Shown: positions 33,001 to 42,000 of the stretch, piece after piece
Position numbering within the stretch: the stretch's first letter is position 1
Layout: each line of letters begins with the position of its first letter
Assembly: GCA_030614715.1 (NCBI GenBank)
Contig: JAUWTM010000005.1
Location: forward strand, 415-64,414
DNA from: Planctomycetota bacterium
GTDB lineage: Bacteria; JAJVIF01; JAPKYR01
DNA: 64,000 nucleotides
Direction: 5' to 3'
Made by a program: the position numbers

Positions 33001-36000
33001 GTAACATCCAAGTATGAATCTATTTTGAGTGTGATTATACACATTGGGAAACGGATATCTATAGCATCCATATAATATCTCACTGGTTGCTTTATAAAAA
33101 AAATTACCCGGCCAATATGTATATACAACCTGTTCCCACCGTCTCTCTCCAGTTTCCGGATCAGGTGGATAGCAGAATCCTCCCATCAGATAGTACATAT
33201 CGGTATTCCACGGTTCCGTATCCCTGAATTCCGCCGGTACATTCATCCAGTCACCATGGTCGAGTGTTCGCCTTGTCTCAATCTCTGACCAGAAAAAAAG
33301 ATCACCAGGATAATTCGCTCCACGGAACCAGTTCATATCATCCAGACCCATCCCCATTGTCGTACCCCTGAAGCCGAACCGAGGATCTCCATGTCCTGAT
33401 GCTCTGCTCCCCTCGACATTCGTCCGCAGTATCACGGATCTTCCATCATCTACGAACGGATTTGACGGATAACCTACTATGTAACCTTTATCTATTAACG
33501 GATCGACAACAAGGTCATTGGTTGCCATCCTGTCACCGACCATCTCGATGTCATTCACACCGTCCCACTGTTCATGCCACGCCGCCCAGCCTTCAACATC
33601 ACCACCCAGCAGGTACGGTGGATAATCACCTTGATCAGTATGGTATCTCTCAACTGCTATCTGAATTGTATGAAGGTTTGCCTTAACTTCAGCTTCTAAT
33701 GCTTTATTATTAGGTCTAAGACGCATCCAATGCGTAGGTACAAATGGACCTATGATTATCCCCAGCAACAACAGCCAGAATATATATATCCCTATCCGCC
33801 CTGCTACTTCTTTGATTTTGTCCCAGTTAACAATGGAATTCACATCTATCACCTCCCGGATTAGCCTACCATTCAAGATGTTCGACACCCGCACCAAGTT
33901 CACTCGTGATAACGAGCACTATCCCGTCCGGGATTCCGTCCGGTGCCCCGAACACCCAGTTGCACGTGTATCCGTCGTAGTACGGGAACTGCGGCATCAG
34001 TCCCCTGCCCCCGCCGCCGAACACTTCGGGATTTGAATACTGAACCCGGTCATCGAAATCCGGATGACTCGCGTCCCTCGACAGATCAATGTGATCCTGG
34101 TAGAACTCACCCATACAATAGCCGTTTATCGCTCCGAATTGGGGTGCACTTGCTATATTTCCTTCCCGACTTGTCAGACGTATAACGTCCAGTCCTTCCG
34201 ATCTAAGCGACCCGTACGCACCAAGCATGTATTTATCGAGAATAACGTAATCCCACTCCCAGATATATTCCCGATTGTATTGGTACTCACTTGCCCCTGA
34301 GTCAAGATCGAACACACCACCCGACCGGTAGAAAAATTCCCCCGGCCAGTAAAAACCGATAGATTTGCCACTTTCGACATCACTTATCCCCTGACGCGTC
34401 CACTCGGGTATACCACCCATGCAGAAAAAGGAGTTAGGGCTGTTACTGTCCAGTACACCTAAATATGAACCCGGTATCGGGTACATCGTCCAGCGTAGAT
34501 CTGTTGCATTGTACATCGCTGGTCCATTGAACAGGTAACGTGGATCGTCGAGGCAGTTTCCCATGTGCTCACCGCTGAACCCGAACCTGACATCGCCGTC
34601 ACCGGGATCGTGACTCGCACCGGTTGCCATGATTATTGTGTCAACACCGTCACCATGAATTAAAAATGCATTACGCGGGTAGTCCTGAATGTAGTTGTAC
34701 TCAATCAGTGGGTCCTTTGGGGGCTCGGCATAGCCCATCGTAGGCATTGTGACTGCCCGACACCCTGAATTTTCATCCCACCCATGCCTGTCGCCTCCTA
34801 GAATATACGACGGGTATTCTCCATAATCGACAGCGTATCTCTCGAGTGCAATTGAAATGGTATGCAGGTTCGATTTCGTCTCCTCCTCCTTCGATTCGTC
34901 CCTTGACCTGATATGAGACGGGATCGTGTACGCCAGAACGACCGCAAGGAGTGCTGACACACCCAGAAATTCCAGTGCAGAGAATCCACGTTGTGTTTTC
35001 ATAACGAATACTCCTCCCACACTGAACCTCCGTCTGTCAATACGAGAATAACACCGTACGGGACTCCGTCAGGTGCGCCGTACAGGAACTCACCCTCGTT
35101 CCGACCTCCTTCATTGTAGAAGTACCCCGGGCCGGTCCACTCATCGCCTCCGCCGAACACTTCGGGAAGTCCGCCACTTCCGCCCCAGCCCCCGGTGAAG
35201 TCATCGTAACCGCAATAGTATGCATCCTCATTGAAAGGAGGTGGTGTTCTCCAGTGAACGGGTGATCCATCGGGAGCTGAGTCCATCAGCCTTATCACAT
35301 CGAGTCCGGTTACACCCTCGCTTCCGTAGCATCCGAGGATATACCTGATTCTCGGACCTCCGACCATGTTGACGTTCGGAATTGGGGCAGTAAATCCGTG
35401 TCTCCCCTGCATTATTGTGTCTGGCGACGCTTTGTAAAAGAAATTCCCCGGCCAGTATCGTATGAGTGGTTCGCTGTCTGGTGGGGCCATCGAAAAGCGC
35501 ATCCCACCGAAAAGGTAGTAACGGTCGGTGATCCTTCGGTAGAATCCCCGGGGCAACTCGTTCCAGATCCCACGATCCAGTGTCCTTCTTGTCTCGATCT
35601 CGCTCCAGGTGAAGTTACCTCGTTCTATAGCACCCTTGAAAAAATTCGGATCGTCCAGACCCATTCCCATCACGTCACCCCTGTACCCGAATCGCGGATC
35701 ACCGTGGCCGTAAGCGTCGCTTCCCTCAACATTGGTTCGCTGGATAACAGTGTGTCCGTCGTTAACGAAAGGATTTGCCGGATATCCTGTAATGTAGTCG
35801 AACTCCAGCAATGGATCGGTGACCCGGTCGTTCGACGCGGTTCGTCCGTCAGTCATGCTGATATCGTTCACGCCGTCCCAGCGCTCATGCCAGACCGTCC
35901 AGCCGTCAAGATCACCGCCGATGAGATAGCCGGGGTACTCGTCATTGTCTGTCGCGTATCTCTCGAGGGCAAGCTGGATCGTGTGCAGATTAGCCTTCAC

Positions 36001-39000: not shown

Positions 39001-42000
39001 ACGTCTGGCCCTGACAATATCCGTTGATTGCTCCGAACTCCGGCATACTTGCCGCAGTTCCTTGTTGCGAGGTCATACGGATAACGTCCATACCTGACGT
39101 ACGGGGTGAACCATAACCACCGAGGATATACTTGTTAACCCGCATGTACGGCCAGCCCCAGATATACTCATACTCGGCACCGGTTACATTCAACGGGTTA
39201 GCAATGAAAAAGTCTCCACCACTTCGGTAGAAGAACTGTCCCGGCCAGAAGGCTTTGATCGCCTGTCCATCCGGGTCACTCGTACCACTTCTCGTCCACT
39301 GGGGCAGACCGCCCATGCAGTAGAACGAGTTAGGTGAGTTATCGTCCAGTACACCGATGTAGCGGCTCTCAACCGGTAACATCGTCCATCTCAGGCGACT
39401 GTGGTTGTTGAGCCCCGGGCCTGTGAACAGGTGACGGGGATCGTCGAGGCAGTTGCCCATCAGCTCACCAGTCCAGCCGAACCTGATGTCTCCATCGCCT
39501 ATGGTAAGGCTCGCACCGGTCCATGCAATGATCGATGTGATACCCTCACCGGGGTCGATGAACGGATTGTCAGGATAGCTGTAGACATAAGCAAAGTGAA
39601 CCAGCGGGTCACGTGGAGGACGGTCGTCCTCCTCGTCCGGTGCCGTGATTGCGCGGCATCCGGATCGCTCGTCCCATCCCCTGGTGTCTCCACCAATGAG
39701 GTAGTTGGGATACGCGCCTGAATGGTCTGTTGCATACCTCTCCAGAGCAATCTGGATTGTATGGCAATTGGACTTAACTTCGGCCTCTTTGGCCTTGTCC
39801 TTGGCCTTGATGTAGTTCGGGAGTGCGATAGCCGCAAGAATCCCGATAATCGTAATGACGACAAGAAGCTCGATTAGCGTGAAGCCACGTTGCGTGTTGC
39901 GCTTCATCATATCACTTCCGTTTGCTGAGATATTAACCTGCCCACTGACGGGCATTGTAAACAAATTTACTGTTTACGTTTTTCTTACCTGGTCCATGCA
40001 GTAACTTCGGAGCCACTGTCAAGTACGAGGATGACCGCATCCTTGGTGCCGTCCGGCGCACCATAGATGAACTCATCAGGATTGTCCTCGCTCTTGTTGT
40101 AGGGATTCCAGGGTCCGTTCCACTCGTCTCCACCACCGAATACCTCGGGAAGTCCACCAGCCGACCCAAAGCCGCCTGAGAACAGATCGTATCCGAGATA
40201 GAAGCAGTCGTAGTCGAACGGGGGCGGGCATCGCCAGTGAAGATCATCACCTTCAGGATTCCACCAGATTAACCTGATGACGTCCATACCCTGTGTGCCT
40301 TCGGCACCGTATCCACCAAGGATGTAGCGGTTATAGTGACCACCGATGTTGGTGTTGGGTACTGGAATCGTGAAGCCCTGCCGACTGATTATCTGGTCCG
40401 ACGTTGCCTTGTAGAAGAAGTTACCCGGCCAGTTTGTGTAGTATACGTCACTGGTCTGGACTTGAGGGTCGATCAGGTCCGGCGGATACCTGAAACCACC
40501 GAACAGGTAGTACATTTCGGTCTGGATGATGGCACCCGATGAATCGAAAGCCGGGGGCACGTTCATGAAGTCACCACGGTCCAGTGTACGTCGGGTTTCG
40601 ATCTCGGTCCAGAAAAAGGGCCCTGGGTGCGTGGCGCCACGGAAAAAGTTCATGTCGTCCAGGCCCATGCCCATGACATTACCCTTGTAACCGAAACGAG
40701 GGTCACCCTCACCCTGCTGGTCGCCACCATCGACGTTCGTTTGCCTGATGATGATCTGACCGTCCCCTACAAAGGGGTTGAACGGGTAACTGGTGATGTA
40801 GTCGTATTCAATCATGGGGTCCTGTACTCGTTCGTTGGATGCAACTCGGCCGCTGCCGTCCGGCATCGACATGTCGTTGGTTCCGTCAAACCGAGTATGC
40901 CAGTTCATCCAGCCGTCGATGTCTCCACCAAGCAGGTAATGGGGATACTCATTGTTATCCGTCATGTACCTCTCGAGAGCAACCTGGATTGTGTGGCAGT
41001 TTGCCTTTACCTCTGCTTCCTTAGCCTTATTCTTGGCCTTGATGTAGTTTGGAAGCGCGATCGCTGCCAAAATACCGATGATCGTGATTACGACCAATAA
41101 CTCAATCAGAGTGAAACCATTCTCTCTGACTTTCATGTGTTAGCCTCGCTTTTCTCCGCATTCAATGCGGAGATTATGATATGTATGATAAAATAAGCGT
41201 ATCCAAATTCAAAAATCTCCACCCTTTTTCTGTTCCTTCGATCTTCTCTTTAAGTTCGTTTTATGGAGATTGGGAAACGTGCGGAAAAACTGCGAGTGTG
41301 GTCTTGGAACCTCGTAATACATTATACCACAACCGCGCATCCGGTCAATTGACCTTGATGTTTTTCAACACCCAATCACCCACCACTTAAGGAAAAAACA
41401 CGATAACACAGCTGTTTCCGCATGTCAAAGCGGATTTTATGTTATTAGAACTTGGTTTTACACACTGCCAGGTGCTCCACTGCCAGGTCCAGATACTCAT
41501 CTATCGGACCCGTATCGAGGTATCGCTCCCAGAAGGTGCAGGCTTCCACGTATCTCTCGGTCTTTTCAAGGCTCAAGGCCAGATTCATGAACGCCTTTGG
41601 GTTGTCACCACCCAGTTCAAGGGCCATCTGGAAGTTATAGATGGCATCATGGTAATTTTCATCCTTAAAGTGACAGAGTCCCAGGTTTATATATGCTTGA
41701 GAGTCTTTCGGGTTGATTTCAAGGGCGTCGTTGTACTTACTGATAGCGTCCTTGTAAGCTTCGGTCTTCCTGTACACATTGCCAAGGCCAAAATGTCCAT
41801 CAGCGTTCTTGGGCTCGTATTCCACGACACGCTGGTAGTAAGTCCTTGCTTCGGGCAGGTTACCGAGCCTGTAATGGGTCTGGGCGAGGTTCAGGATCGC
41901 TTTCGAGAAGTCGGGACGGATATCGATTGCCTTCTTGAACATCTCGATCGCTGGATCCGGCTCCTTCATGATGACCAGCACCTTGCCGAGGGCGTCCATG

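What the first reader, a model, noticed from the sequence alone, without database searches (positions are those of the whole stretch)
33866..41136. Two subtypes arranged as repeated A-then-B dyads, with ATGA translational coupling
Subtype A (P1, P2, P4, P6) shares WSEIETRRTLD(R/H)G and NFFYKA(T/S). Subtype B (P3, P5) shares GWDE(N/R)SGCRA, RWTM, NSF(F/Y)CMGG(I/L)P(E/Q)WTR, FGAINGYC and SNPEVFGGG(G/E)RGLMPQFPYY. Subtype B also has four conserved Cys, which is consistent with disulfides in an extracytoplasmic protein. In transcription order the genes read P6(A)-P5(B), then ICMT-P4(A)-P3(B)-P2(A)-P1(A), so each B directly follows an A. The P4 stop and P3 start overlap as ATGA (34999-35002), with GGAGGAG 8 nt upstream, which implies coupled expression. 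This pattern suggests an A/B heteromeric unit that was duplicated as a module.
Basis: seen in the sequence. Interest (0 to 1): 0.6.

Follow-up and report, generated by a model that had tools for sequence, protein, structure and literature searches.

The report
Paired giant pilin-like genes, two subtypes
An uncultured bacterium from a tiny candidate phylum carries six ~380-residue pilin-like genes of two old subtypes, arranged as conserved A-then-B pairs. The pairs are real and were copied as a unit, but whether A and B bind each other or build a shared filament is untested.

Summary
Six minus-strand paralogs (P1 to P6) split into subtype A (P1, P2, P4, P6) and subtype B (P3, P5). The B clade has bootstrap 100. 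The P4/P3 ATGA overlap with an upstream GGAGGAG is present.

All six are type IV pilin-like. They have a prepilin leader, Glu5 and a 50-residue alpha1 helix, followed by a ~320-residue globular domain. That domain has no Pfam, NCBIfam or PDB sequence match and no Foldseek match, although the AlphaFold2 models score pLDDT 91-94.

The family occurs in all 14 species genomes of the window's phylum. A-then-B adjacency is kept in about 16 of 18 testable cases in the window's order. It is absent in the two more distant families. P6-type A always pairs with P5-type B, and P4-type A with P3-type B, so the pair was duplicated as a block.

P6 and P5 share 48 of 51 alpha1 residues but only 34% of the globular domain, and the shared residues use many different codons. 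The second pair has a fast-evolving anchor helix. In some relatives that helix is replaced by a plain signal anchor, and related unpaired copies carry a lipobox.

The "four conserved Cys" are not conserved across the family. Physical A:B partnership remains an inference. This is a new variant of a known kind, of moderate interest.

The parts
41445..42119 (-). TPR protein of 224 aa, the conserved upstream neighbour of the cluster. It has no signal peptide.
   Evidence: It gives only generic TPR hits, all below the curated cut-offs. The homolog sits directly upstream of the first pilin-like gene in 12 related loci, including one from a distant family.
41321..41348 (-). Promoter-like site upstream of P6: TTGACC, 16-nt spacer, TG-TATAAT, matching 11 of 12 positions.
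   Evidence: Consensus scan only; this is not evidence of function.
39985..41136 (-). P6, subtype A of pair 1 (A1). It is a 383-aa type IV pilin-like protein with leader MKVRENG|F.
   Evidence: N_methyl hit at 9e-09. TIGR02532 and the N-terminal part of GspG match. The AF2 model has pLDDT 91.2 and pTM 0.89. It falls in the A1 ortholog clade.
39936..39954 (-). Conserved 19-nt motif TGCCCGTCAGTGGGCAGGT in the P6-P5 spacer. A conserved CGGAAGTGAT sequence (39911-39920) follows, just before the P5 start.
   Evidence: Alignment of eight genomes. Only a weak 5-bp hairpin is predicted, with no covariation. There is no Rfam match.
38759..39907 (-). P5, subtype B of pair 1 (B1). It is 382 aa with leader MKRNTQRG|F.
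   Evidence: N_methyl hit at 1.9e-10. The AF2 model has pLDDT 94.0 and pTM 0.90. It falls in the B1 clade. Its alpha1 matches P6 at 48 of 51 residues.
38618..38643 (-). Terminator-like hairpin after P5: an 11-bp stem with 9 GC pairs, followed by a T tail.
37549..38454 (+). Opposite-strand gene of 301 aa with a weak FG-GAP match. It is an insertion private to this lineage.
   Evidence: Weak Pfam match. No homolog was found in any related locus. The related clusters run from B1 to A2 with only about 230-375 nt between them.
36359..36925 (-). Membrane methyltransferase of 188 aa, PEMT/ICMT-like. It is also private to this lineage.
   Evidence: PF04191 at 4.2e-11. NF040696 scores 49 bits against a cut-off of 160. 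It is absent from the related loci.
34999..36165 (-). P4, subtype A of pair 2 (A2). The likely start is ATG 36132, with GGGAGG 6 nt upstream, giving 377 aa. The leader is MKIKNREHG|F.
   Evidence: It falls in the A2 clade with support 100/98. Its alpha1 is only 55% identical to that of P6.
33866..35002 (-). P3, subtype B of pair 2 (B2), 378 aa. Its ATG overlaps the P4 stop codon as ATGA. The motif is G|FSALE, so Glu5 is kept.
   Evidence: It falls in the B2 clade with support 100/92.
32674..33843 (-). P2, a divergent A-type copy without a prepilin motif. It appears to carry a signal anchor. The likely start is GTG 33843, after GGGAGG, 22 nt downstream of the P3 stop.
   Evidence: No Pfam or NCBIfam match to its N-terminus. 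Sequence read directly. Long branch of about 0.6-0.66.
31196..32338 (-). P1, a lone A-type gene of 380 aa with a canonical prepilin N-terminus. It lies 335 nt after P2.
   Evidence: The P1-type clade has support 99/97 and is also unpaired in relatives.
31122..31147 (-). Terminator-like hairpin after P1.
24223..30486 (.). Conserved downstream neighbours: a Ser/Thr kinase (29668-30486, +), a TMEM260/DUF2723-like GT-C protein with TPR repeats (26934-29489, +) and a Wzy_C protein (24223-26928, -).
   Evidence: Pfam matches. The same genes follow the pilin-like cluster in up to seven related loci: L021, L023, L029, L030, L031, L047 and, for the kinase and a weaker DUF2723 match, L032; the Wzy_C gene is seen in five of them.

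Best explanation
**What was shown.** A and B are two old paralogous subtypes of a family restricted to one small candidate phylum. The proteins are about 380 aa and look like type IV pilins. Each has a short basic leader ending in Gly, then Phe1 and Glu5, and a roughly 50-residue alpha1 helix. A globular domain of about 320 aa and unknown fold follows. In the window's order the genes occur as same-strand A-then-B pairs. One such pair was duplicated as a block in the window's family, giving pair 1 (P6-P5) and pair 2 (P4-P3).

**What is inferred.** The pair is the functional unit. In pair 1, A and B are cut by the genome's single prepilin peptidase. The same type IV filament machinery then builds them into one filament or pseudopilus as a two-subunit heteropolymer. 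The nearly identical alpha1 helices would form a common core, and the two different acidic globular domains would form the surface. P1 and the unpaired C27-type paralog carry the same alpha1 and could enter the same fibre.

Pair 2 and P2 are derived copies. Their anchor helix is no longer held to the filament-core sequence. In some relatives pair-2 and P2-like copies have a plain signal anchor instead, and related unpaired copies carry a lipobox. These copies probably act as membrane-anchored A:B pairs. Their tight translational coupling would keep the two proteins at matched amounts.
For: **Pilin features.** N_methyl, TIGR02532 and the N-terminal part of GspG/PilA match residues 1-66 only. 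A profile search of PDB sequences hits residues 4-68 of Geopilin, M. xanthus PilA, GspG and Thermus PilA4. The AF2 models show a helix over residues 10-61 and a central strand block, residues 199-265 in P5, with pLDDT 94 and 91.

**Machinery in the genome.** There are one prepilin peptidase, 12 T2SSE-type ATPases and 4 secretins.

**Two clades.** The B clade has support 100/98.

**Adjacency.** In the fetched loci, 16 of the 18 B genes of the order (families f1 and f2) that have readable upstream DNA sit directly after an A gene. L024 and L057 are the exceptions. At least nine of the order's ten genomes show an A-then-B pair. A and B hits also share contig lengths on at least 17 metagenome contigs, many of them only 2.4-2.7 kb long.

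**Block duplication.** A1 pairs with B1 and A2 with B2 in the window, L023 and L059. L034 carries an A2/B2 pair. A1-to-A2 divergence (60%) is similar to B1-to-B2 divergence (56%).

**Same alpha1 under selection.** P6 and P5 share 48 of 51 alpha1 residues, and 26 of those use different codons. Their globular domains are only 34% identical. This alpha1 is nearly invariant in A1, B1, P1-type and the f2 pairs across genomes. It differs clearly from the alpha1 of the genome's short pilins.

**Coupling.** The gap between A2 and B2 is -8 to +4 nt in five genomes. The A1-B1 spacer and its ribosome-binding site are conserved.

**Operon signals.** There is a promoter-like site before P6 and a terminator-like hairpin after P5.

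**Precedents.** S. sanguinis pili contain two adjacent paralogous major pilins (PMC10628169). The M. villosus archaellum is built of two alternating archaellins (PMC8821640).
Against: - No direct test of A:B contact or of filament formation was possible.
- Lone A genes (P1-type, C27, C94) and lone B-like genes in the two distant families show that neither subtype needs an adjacent partner.
- The window genome has seven A-like genes but only two B genes.
- Both globular domains are strongly acidic, with pI 4.2-4.6, so there is no charge complementarity.
- Columns that change together within a pair are few: 2, against 0 for the control pattern.
- A mature subunit of about 375 aa is much larger than known major pilins (M. 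xanthus PilA is 208 aa). It would give a very thick fibre.
- Some A2, P2-like and solitary B-like copies have lost the prepilin motif. The globular domain can therefore work without polymerisation.
- No filament machinery genes lie next to any family member examined.
Confidence: 0.42

Rival explanations
1. A and B form a partnership without a filament. They would be envelope proteins held in the inner membrane by a pilin-like helix, as pseudopilin-style anchors, or by a signal anchor or lipid. Their globular domains would form an A:B heterodimer in the periplasm or on the surface. The function would lie in the novel acidic domain, for example cation or ligand binding.
For: The anchor is interchangeable. 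Some A2, P2-like and B-like copies lack GFxxxE or carry a lipobox, yet they keep alpha1C and the whole globular domain. The A2-B2 overlap is conserved even though alpha1N evolves fast. The conserved motifs are rich in Asp and Gly (GGD, GDGDxRFG, LDD, GAPDG), and net charge is -15 to -28.
Against: In pair 1, P1-type and the f2 pairs, alpha1N is identical across families down to the residue, including Gly14, Pro22 and Glu5. That degree of constraint is expected for a helix that packs in a filament core and docks on the assembly platform. It is not expected for a simple membrane anchor. This reasoning rests on established pilin knowledge and is an inference.
Confidence: 0.25
2. There is no physical partnership. 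A and B would be independent, alternative pilins or surface modules that diversified after tandem duplication. They would stay adjacent only through inertia and shared transcription. Different filaments, conditions or ligands would use different copies.
For: Lone A and lone B-like genes are common. Copy numbers of the two subtypes are unequal, 7 against 2 in this genome. In L059 a third pair combines an A of the P2/P4 lineage with a B of the P5 lineage, so the pairs are not all block copies. Little pair-specific covariation was seen.
Against: Order and strand are fixed, with A always upstream, across two families in which A orthologs are only about 50% identical. The pair was re-duplicated as a unit. 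A-then-B order also arose again in L059's third pair. Start-stop overlap is conserved in pair 2.
Confidence: 0.23
3. The six proteins are minor pilins that form a priming or tip complex for a filament whose major subunit is encoded elsewhere, for example on contig C38 or C146.
For: Several pilin-like genes in one operon, with overlapping stops and starts, is typical of minor-pilin operons (established knowledge). Large size is common among minor or modular pilins, such as S. sanguinis PilB (bioRxiv 10.1101/2021.01.27.428410, listed).
Against: Minor pilins of one complex are normally not recognisable paralogs of each other, whereas these share 33-71% identity over their full length. The alpha1 is highly conserved and canonical, with Glu5 kept. 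There is a strong promoter-like site and a terminator around P6-P5. No machinery or other minor-pilin genes are adjacent.
Confidence: 0.1

Closest known systems
Streptococcus sanguinis heteropolymeric type IV pilus (PilE1 and PilE2; PMC10628169, PMC6497953)
   Same: Two adjacent paralogous pilin genes carry the same class III signal and alpha1. Both proteins are built into one filament.
   Different: PilE1 and PilE2 are small (PilE1 is 139 aa in PDB 8pfb). From memory they are close paralogs, and they are arranged stochastically in the fibre. Here the subunits are about 375 aa with an unknown fold. A and B are only 33-43% identical overall, and the split dates back at least to the order. Co-assembly is not shown.
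Methanocaldococcus villosus archaellum of two alternating archaellins (PMC8821640)
   Same: It is a type IV filament-superfamily fibre built from a heterodimeric repeat of two paralogs encoded in one operon. It is a model for an obligate A:B unit.
   Different: It is an archaeal rotary organelle with a different machinery and subunit fold. No evidence for alternation exists here.
Type IVa major pilins and the T2SS major pseudopilin GspG (M. xanthus PilA 8tj2, Thermus PilA4 6xxd, GspG 5wda, Geobacter PilA-N)
   Same: The leader, Gly-1/Phe1/Glu5, Gly14, Pro22 and alpha1 are shared. Residues 4-68 match with E values from 7e-11 to 8e-07. The models show a long helix plus a beta-sheet block.
   Different: Whole-protein scores are far below the family cut-offs. 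TIGR01710 scores 56 bits against 88.85, and NF041775 scores 56 against 400. The globular part is two to three times larger and has no sequence or Foldseek match.
Geobacter PilA-N/PilA-C two-gene pilin (from my own knowledge: Gu et al., Nature 2021)
   Same: Two adjacent genes encode a heterodimeric pilus building block. PilA-N (Geopilin domain 1) is the best PDB sequence match to the alpha1 here.
   Different: The Geobacter case is a split pilin, with the helix in one gene and the globular part in the other. Here both genes encode complete pilin-like proteins.
Planctomycete DUF1559 (PF07596) pilin-like proteins
   Same: It is a large, multi-copy family of about 300-400 aa proteins with a prepilin N-terminus and unknown function. 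It occurs in a lineage that NCBI labels Planctomycetota.
   Different: PF07596 was not among the Pfam matches listed at E up to 0.1. The domain here is a different one.

Membership tests
Type IV pilin / type IV filament subunit (class III signal peptide proteins) | Short basic leader ending in Gly, followed by a hydrophobic N-terminus with Glu at +5 (GFxxxE) | tested here: met
   P1, P5 and P6 pass N_methyl (31.5-40.3 bits against a cut-off of 21.2) and TIGR02532. P3 (16.6 bits) and P4 (19.0 bits) fall below the Pfam cut-off but read G|FSALE and G|FTLIE. P2 does not have the motif.
Type IV pilin / type IV filament subunit (class III signal peptide proteins) | Long N-terminal alpha1 helix packed on an antiparallel beta-sheet | tested here: inconclusive
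   The AF2 models give a helix over residues 10-61 and, in P5, long strands at 199-265. Foldseek aligns only alpha1 to pilins, with E of 0.09-0.6. Model coordinates could not be inspected.
Type IV pilin / type IV filament subunit (class III signal peptide proteins) | Prepilin peptidase and assembly machinery present in the genome | tested here: met
   One PF01478 hit, 12 PF00437 hits over the cut-off and 4 PF00263 hits in the window's genome. None of them is adjacent to the cluster.
Type IV pilin / type IV filament subunit (class III signal peptide proteins) | Polymerises into a filament | not testable with these tools
   No multimer modelling was available, and the organism is uncultured.
T2SS major pseudopilin GspG (TIGR01710 / PF08334) | Whole-protein score above the curated cut-off | tested here: not met
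   TIGR01710 scores 31-56 bits against a cut-off of 88.85. PF08334 scores 13.5-18 bits against 21. Only residues of about 1-66 align.
Heteropolymeric two-pilin filament (S. sanguinis PilE1/PilE2 type) | Two adjacent paralogous pilin genes with the same alpha1 | tested here: met
   P6 and P5 are adjacent, with 48 of 51 alpha1 residues identical. This holds across genomes.
Heteropolymeric two-pilin filament (S. sanguinis PilE1/PilE2 type) | Both proteins present in the same fibre | not testable with these tools
   This needs fibre purification, or at least multimer modelling.
Planctomycete DUF1559 (PF07596) | Match to the Pfam model | tested here: not met
   PF07596 is not among the matches listed at E up to 0.1 for any of the six proteins.
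Phage or defence-system protein | Match to PHROGs or PADLOC models beyond the pilin N-terminus | tested here: not met
   PHROGs hits cover only residues of about 1-57 (pilin-type). PADLOC gives no hits.

The most novel reading that the evidence does not exclude
The A and B globular domains, of a fold with no solved relative, would form an obligate heterodimeric repeat unit of an unusually thick bacterial type IV filament. Subunits of about 375 aa would alternate in an ordered way. This would be a bacterial counterpart of the alternating two-archaellin filament. It would be universal in one small candidate phylum and possibly O-glycosylated by the conserved neighbouring GT-C and Wzy_C proteins.
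Probability: 0.15. Interest if true: 0.75.

Novelty: new variant of a known kind. Interest (0 to 1): 0.5.

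Why it matters
Type IV filaments are usually described as polymers of one small major pilin. Only a few heteropolymers are known, such as S. sanguinis pili and one archaellum. This family is present in every sampled genome of a barely known candidate phylum. It combines a canonical pilin helix with a large, confidently modelled domain that has no structural or sequence relative. It has been kept for a long time as ordered A-then-B gene pairs.

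If the pair proves to be a heteromeric building block, it would add a new architecture to the type IV filament superfamily and probably a new fold. It would also give a first handle on the cell surface of an uncultured lineage. The swaps between pilin helix, signal anchor and lipobox within one family also form a natural experiment on how pilin-like proteins leave or enter filament assembly.

Tried and rejected
1. **Disulfide hypothesis.** Only one of the four Cys is conserved family-wide, and Cys counts are often odd, so I rejected it as a family feature.
2. **Known domain for the globular part.** Pfam, NCBIfam, PHROGs, PADLOC, a profile search of PDB sequences and two Foldseek searches against PDB all hit only the N-terminal helix.
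3. **ICMT/PEMT-like gene and FG-GAP gene as parts of the system.** I rejected this because neither has a homolog in any related locus. Related clusters lack them.
4. **Remnant of a third B gene in the P2-P1 gap or other gaps.** None was found.
5. **Structured RNA in the conserved A1-B1 spacer.** There is only a weak 5-bp hairpin without covariation, and no Rfam hit.
6. **Charge complementarity between A and B.** There is none, because both are strongly acidic.
7. **Pair-specific covarying columns.** There were 2 against 0 for the control pattern, which is too few to count.
8. **Recent gene conversion as the cause of identical alpha1.** I rejected this because 26 of the 48 identical residues use different codons.
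10. **Machinery next to solitary family members on long metagenome contigs.** None was found.
11. **Literature on this family or on MAG AUK107.** Nothing was found.

Full report
**1. What is in the sequence**

Six paralogous ORFs lie on the minus strand between 31196 and 41136. They are P1 (31196-32338), P2 (32674-33903), P3 (33866-35002), P4 (34999-36165), P5 (38759-39907) and P6 (39985-41136). Between P4 and P5 sit a PEMT/ICMT-like membrane methyltransferase (36359-36925, minus strand) and a plus-strand gene with a weak FG-GAP match (37549-38454).

Reading the DNA refines two starts. P4 most likely starts at ATG 36132, which has GGGAGG 6 nt upstream. P2 most likely starts at GTG 33843, which follows GGGAGG and lies 22 nt after the P3 stop.

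There are two slips: P6 reads WTEIE rather than WSEIE, and P1 reads NFFYKGT. Identities are 53-71% within A, 56% between P3 and P5, and 33-43% between A and B.

**2. What the proteins are**

All known-family signal lies in the first 66 residues or so.
- Pfam N_methyl, TIGR02532 and the N-terminal helices of GspG, PilA and ComGC models match, but all whole-protein models score far below their cut-offs.
- A profile of 102 family members searched against all PDB sequences matches only residues 4-68 of Geobacter PilA-N, M. xanthus PilA, GspG, Thermus PilA4 and other pilins.

The proteins therefore have a class III signal peptide with leaders of 5-8 residues ending in Gly. They have Phe1, Glu5, Gly14 and Pro22.

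The remaining 320 residues or so have no match in Pfam, NCBIfam, PHROGs or PADLOC. AlphaFold2 with family alignments gives confident models: P5 has pLDDT 94.0 and pTM 0.90, and P6 has 91.2 and 0.89. Both show a helix over residues 10-61, a long loop region and a central block of long strands. Foldseek against PDB finds nothing for the globular part. Only alpha1 aligns to pilins, with E of 0.09-0.6.

The globular domains are very acidic, with pI 4.2-4.6 and net charge -15 to -28. Their invariant positions are mostly Gly, Pro and Asp.

The genome is a 4.29-Mb, 87%-complete MAG. It has one prepilin peptidase, 12 T2SSE-type ATPases and 4 secretins, and none of them lies near the cluster.

**3. Distribution**

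The window's phylum holds only 14 species genomes in the collection searched. All 14 carry the family, with 4-12 matches each. A pattern scan of 185,579 species genomes found relatives in about 11 MAGs, labelled "Planctomycetota bacterium" or "bacterium".

A profile search of 1.84 billion cluster representatives gave 98 hits below 1e-30. Only about 35 of these cover the full length. A wider set of 1,597 hits below 1e-10 shares mainly the first 165 residues or so. Sources name these proteins only as prepilin-type or GspG-like proteins.

The window's own genome has further A-like copies on contigs C27, C94 and C197, and more remote large pilin-like genes on C87, C1 and C38. It has only two B genes.

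**4. Two subtypes, tested by a tree**

A maximum-likelihood tree of 77 sequences (LG+C20, ultrafast bootstrap and SH-aLRT) separates a B clade with support 100/98 from all other ingroup members. P1, P2, P4 and P6 fall in one clade with support 90/92.

Ortholog groups inside these clades are clear:
- A1 is P6-type.
- P1-type has support 99/97.
- A2 is P4-type, with support 100/98, and P2 attaches next to it.
- B1 is P5-type, with support 93/97.
- B2 is P3-type, with support 100/92.

The second family of the order (f2) has its own A' and B' groups outside these splits. The two distant families (f3, f4) have B-like genes and a C27-type group but no A in the strict sense.

**5. Adjacency, tested in other genomes**

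In the fetched loci, 16 of the 18 B genes of families f1 and f2 with readable upstream DNA have an A gene directly upstream on the same strand. These comprise two pairs in L023 and three in L059. L025, L026, L027, L029, L030, L031, L032, L033, L034, L035 and L044 contribute one pair each. The exceptions are L024, which has B then A, and L057, which has a lone B.

The whole-genome search shows an A-then-B pair in at least nine of the ten genomes of the order. A and B hits also share contig lengths on at least 17 metagenome contigs, many only 2.4-2.7 kb long. In families f3 and f4 the B-like genes are solitary (L048, L049, L051, L052).

An 827-kb metagenome contig (L059) shows the fullest form of the cluster: lepB-rnhB-yraN-TPR-A1-B1-A2-B2-A-B, then two opposite-strand genes, then a P1-type A. 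The same flanks occur in the window and many other loci: rnhB, yraN and the TPR gene on one side, and a Ser/Thr kinase, a TMEM260/DUF2723-like GT-C protein and a Wzy_C protein on the other. The ICMT-like and FG-GAP genes have no homolog in any related locus, so they are a private insertion and not part of the system.

**6. Module duplication**

A1 is next to B1 and A2 next to B2 in the window, L023 and L059; L034 shows the A2/B2 pair, and L044 has an A of the P4/P2 lineage next to a B2. Both the A1/A2 and the B1/B2 splits fall after the f1/f2 divergence and before the f1 genera radiated. Their depths are similar, at 60% and 56% identity. This fits one block duplication of an older A-B pair.

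L059's third pair is mixed: its A belongs to the P2/P4 lineage and its B sits inside the B1 group. A-then-B order was therefore re-created there, or the B gene was converted. No remnant of a third B exists in the window.

**7. Coupling**

Pair 2 is abutting or overlapping in all five genomes examined, with a gap of -8 to +4 nt and a GGAGG sequence inside the end of A. Pair 1 is not overlapped. It has a spacer of 67-82 nt with a conserved 19-nt motif (window 39954-39936) and a conserved CGGAAGTGAT sequence before the ATG. Only a weak hairpin without covariation is predicted there, and there is no Rfam match.

Consensus scans place a promoter-like site before P6, a strong terminator-like hairpin after P5, a promoter-like site before the ICMT-like gene and a terminator-like hairpin after P1.

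**8. The most informative new observation: the anchor helix**

P6 (A) and P5 (B) share 48 of 51 alpha1 residues, although their globular domains are only 34% identical. Of those 48 residues, 26 use different codons. This points to purifying selection rather than recent gene conversion. The same alpha1 occurs in P1, in the solitary C27 paralog, and in A1, B1, P1-type, A' and B' of all genomes. It differs clearly from the alpha1 of the genome's short pilins.

Pair 2 and the P2-like copies behave differently. Their alpha1N evolves fast. P4 is 55% identical to P6 in alpha1, and P3 is 47% identical to P5. Some relatives have no GFxxxE at all (L059 A2, window P2, L030_400). Others carry a lipobox (L029_5289, L053). 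All of them keep alpha1C (ExExKxNxHxIQxALERY) and the globular domain.

**9. Interpretation**

*Shown:* the two subtypes, the conserved ordered pairs, the block duplication, the conserved coupling of pair 2 and the common alpha1 of pair 1.

*Inferred:* the pair is the functional unit. My preferred reading (0.42) is that pair 1, perhaps together with P1 and C27, is processed by the prepilin peptidase and co-assembled into one type IV filament or pseudopilus with a common core and two kinds of surface domain. Pair 2 would be a derived pair that is drifting toward, or has reached, a membrane-anchored state.

The rivals are:
- an anchored A:B heterodimer with no polymer at all (0.25);
- independent pilins that stay adjacent only by inertia (0.23);
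- a minor-pilin or tip complex (0.10).

Several points argue against a strict partnership. Lone A and lone B-like genes exist. Copy numbers are unequal. There is no charge complementarity. Only two pair-specific covarying columns were found. The disulfide argument fails, because only Cys84 is conserved family-wide.

**10. Comparison with known systems**

The nearest functional precedents are the S. sanguinis pilus, built of two adjacent paralogous major pilins (PMC10628169), and the M. villosus archaellum of two alternating archaellins (PMC8821640). The Geobacter PilA-N/PilA-C pair (from my own knowledge) is a two-gene pilin, but it is a split protein.

The proteins meet the sequence definition of type IV pilins. 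They fail the GspG and PilA equivalog cut-offs and show no DUF1559 match. I file them as a new variant of a known kind: pilin-like proteins with an undescribed large domain, organised in ordered subtype pairs.

**11. Verdict**

Interest is moderate (0.5). The gene architecture is solid and the domain is undescribed, but the function and any A:B contact rest on inference, and the organism is uncultured.

Noticed in passing
window 39936-39954 and 39911-39920 (minus strand): A conserved 19-nt motif, TGCCCGTCAGTGGGCAGGT, and a conserved CGGAAGTGAT sequence lie in the P6-P5 spacer of eight genomes. The motif could be a regulatory or processing site that sets the A:B ratio. Only a weak hairpin is predicted, with no covariation and no Rfam hit.
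   Followed up: partly
window 36359-38454: The PEMT/ICMT-like methyltransferase gene and the opposite-strand FG-GAP-like gene that split the cluster have no homolog in any of the 39 related loci searched (L021-L059). They appear to be an insertion private to this lineage.
   Followed up: yes
window 24223-30486: A Ser/Thr kinase, a TMEM260/DUF2723-like GT-C protein with TPR repeats and a Wzy_C (O-antigen-ligase-like) protein follow the pilin-like cluster in up to seven related loci; the Wzy_C gene is seen in five of them. Wzy_C-type enzymes glycosylate pilins in other bacteria (from my own knowledge), so pilin O-glycosylation is a lead.
   Followed up: partly
window 32674-33843 (P2); L029:5289-6407; L053:407-1660; L059:11377-12498: Within one family the N-terminal anchor switches between a prepilin helix, a plain signal anchor and a lipobox (LAAC, LVSC). 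Alpha1C and the globular domain are kept throughout.
   Followed up: partly
window P6 residue 47 and P5 residue 48 (NCHTIQ): A Cys in alpha1C is present in both partners of pair 1 and in both partners of the odd L024 pair. It is Leu in both partners of pair 2 and in P1. This is a partner-correlated position, but the evidence is weak.
   Followed up: partly
own genome, contig C38 about 1-12700: This is a likely type IV pilus locus. It holds the only prepilin peptidase (6227-6595), two PilT-like ATPases and four large pilin-like ORFs. One of them (1786-2976, 396 aa) has an alpha1C motif related to this family.
   Followed up: no
own genome, contig C146 about 12250-31500: An array of about a dozen short pilin-like genes (160-232 aa) lies with a 1604-aa secretin ORF and a T2SSE ATPase. 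Their alpha1 type differs from that of the large pilin-like family.
   Followed up: no
L059:13647-16179: A related 827-kb contig has a third A-then-B pair. Its A belongs to the P2/P4 lineage, but its B nests inside the P5-type group. The pair order was therefore re-created, or the B gene was converted.
   Followed up: partly
(wider protein library): About 1,600 cluster representatives share only the first 165 residues or so: alpha1 plus the GGDxxGW, DPLxxYxYxxYPxNPF and GDGDxRFG region. Their C-terminal parts differ. This points to a broader, undescribed superfamily of large pilin-like proteins.
   Followed up: no
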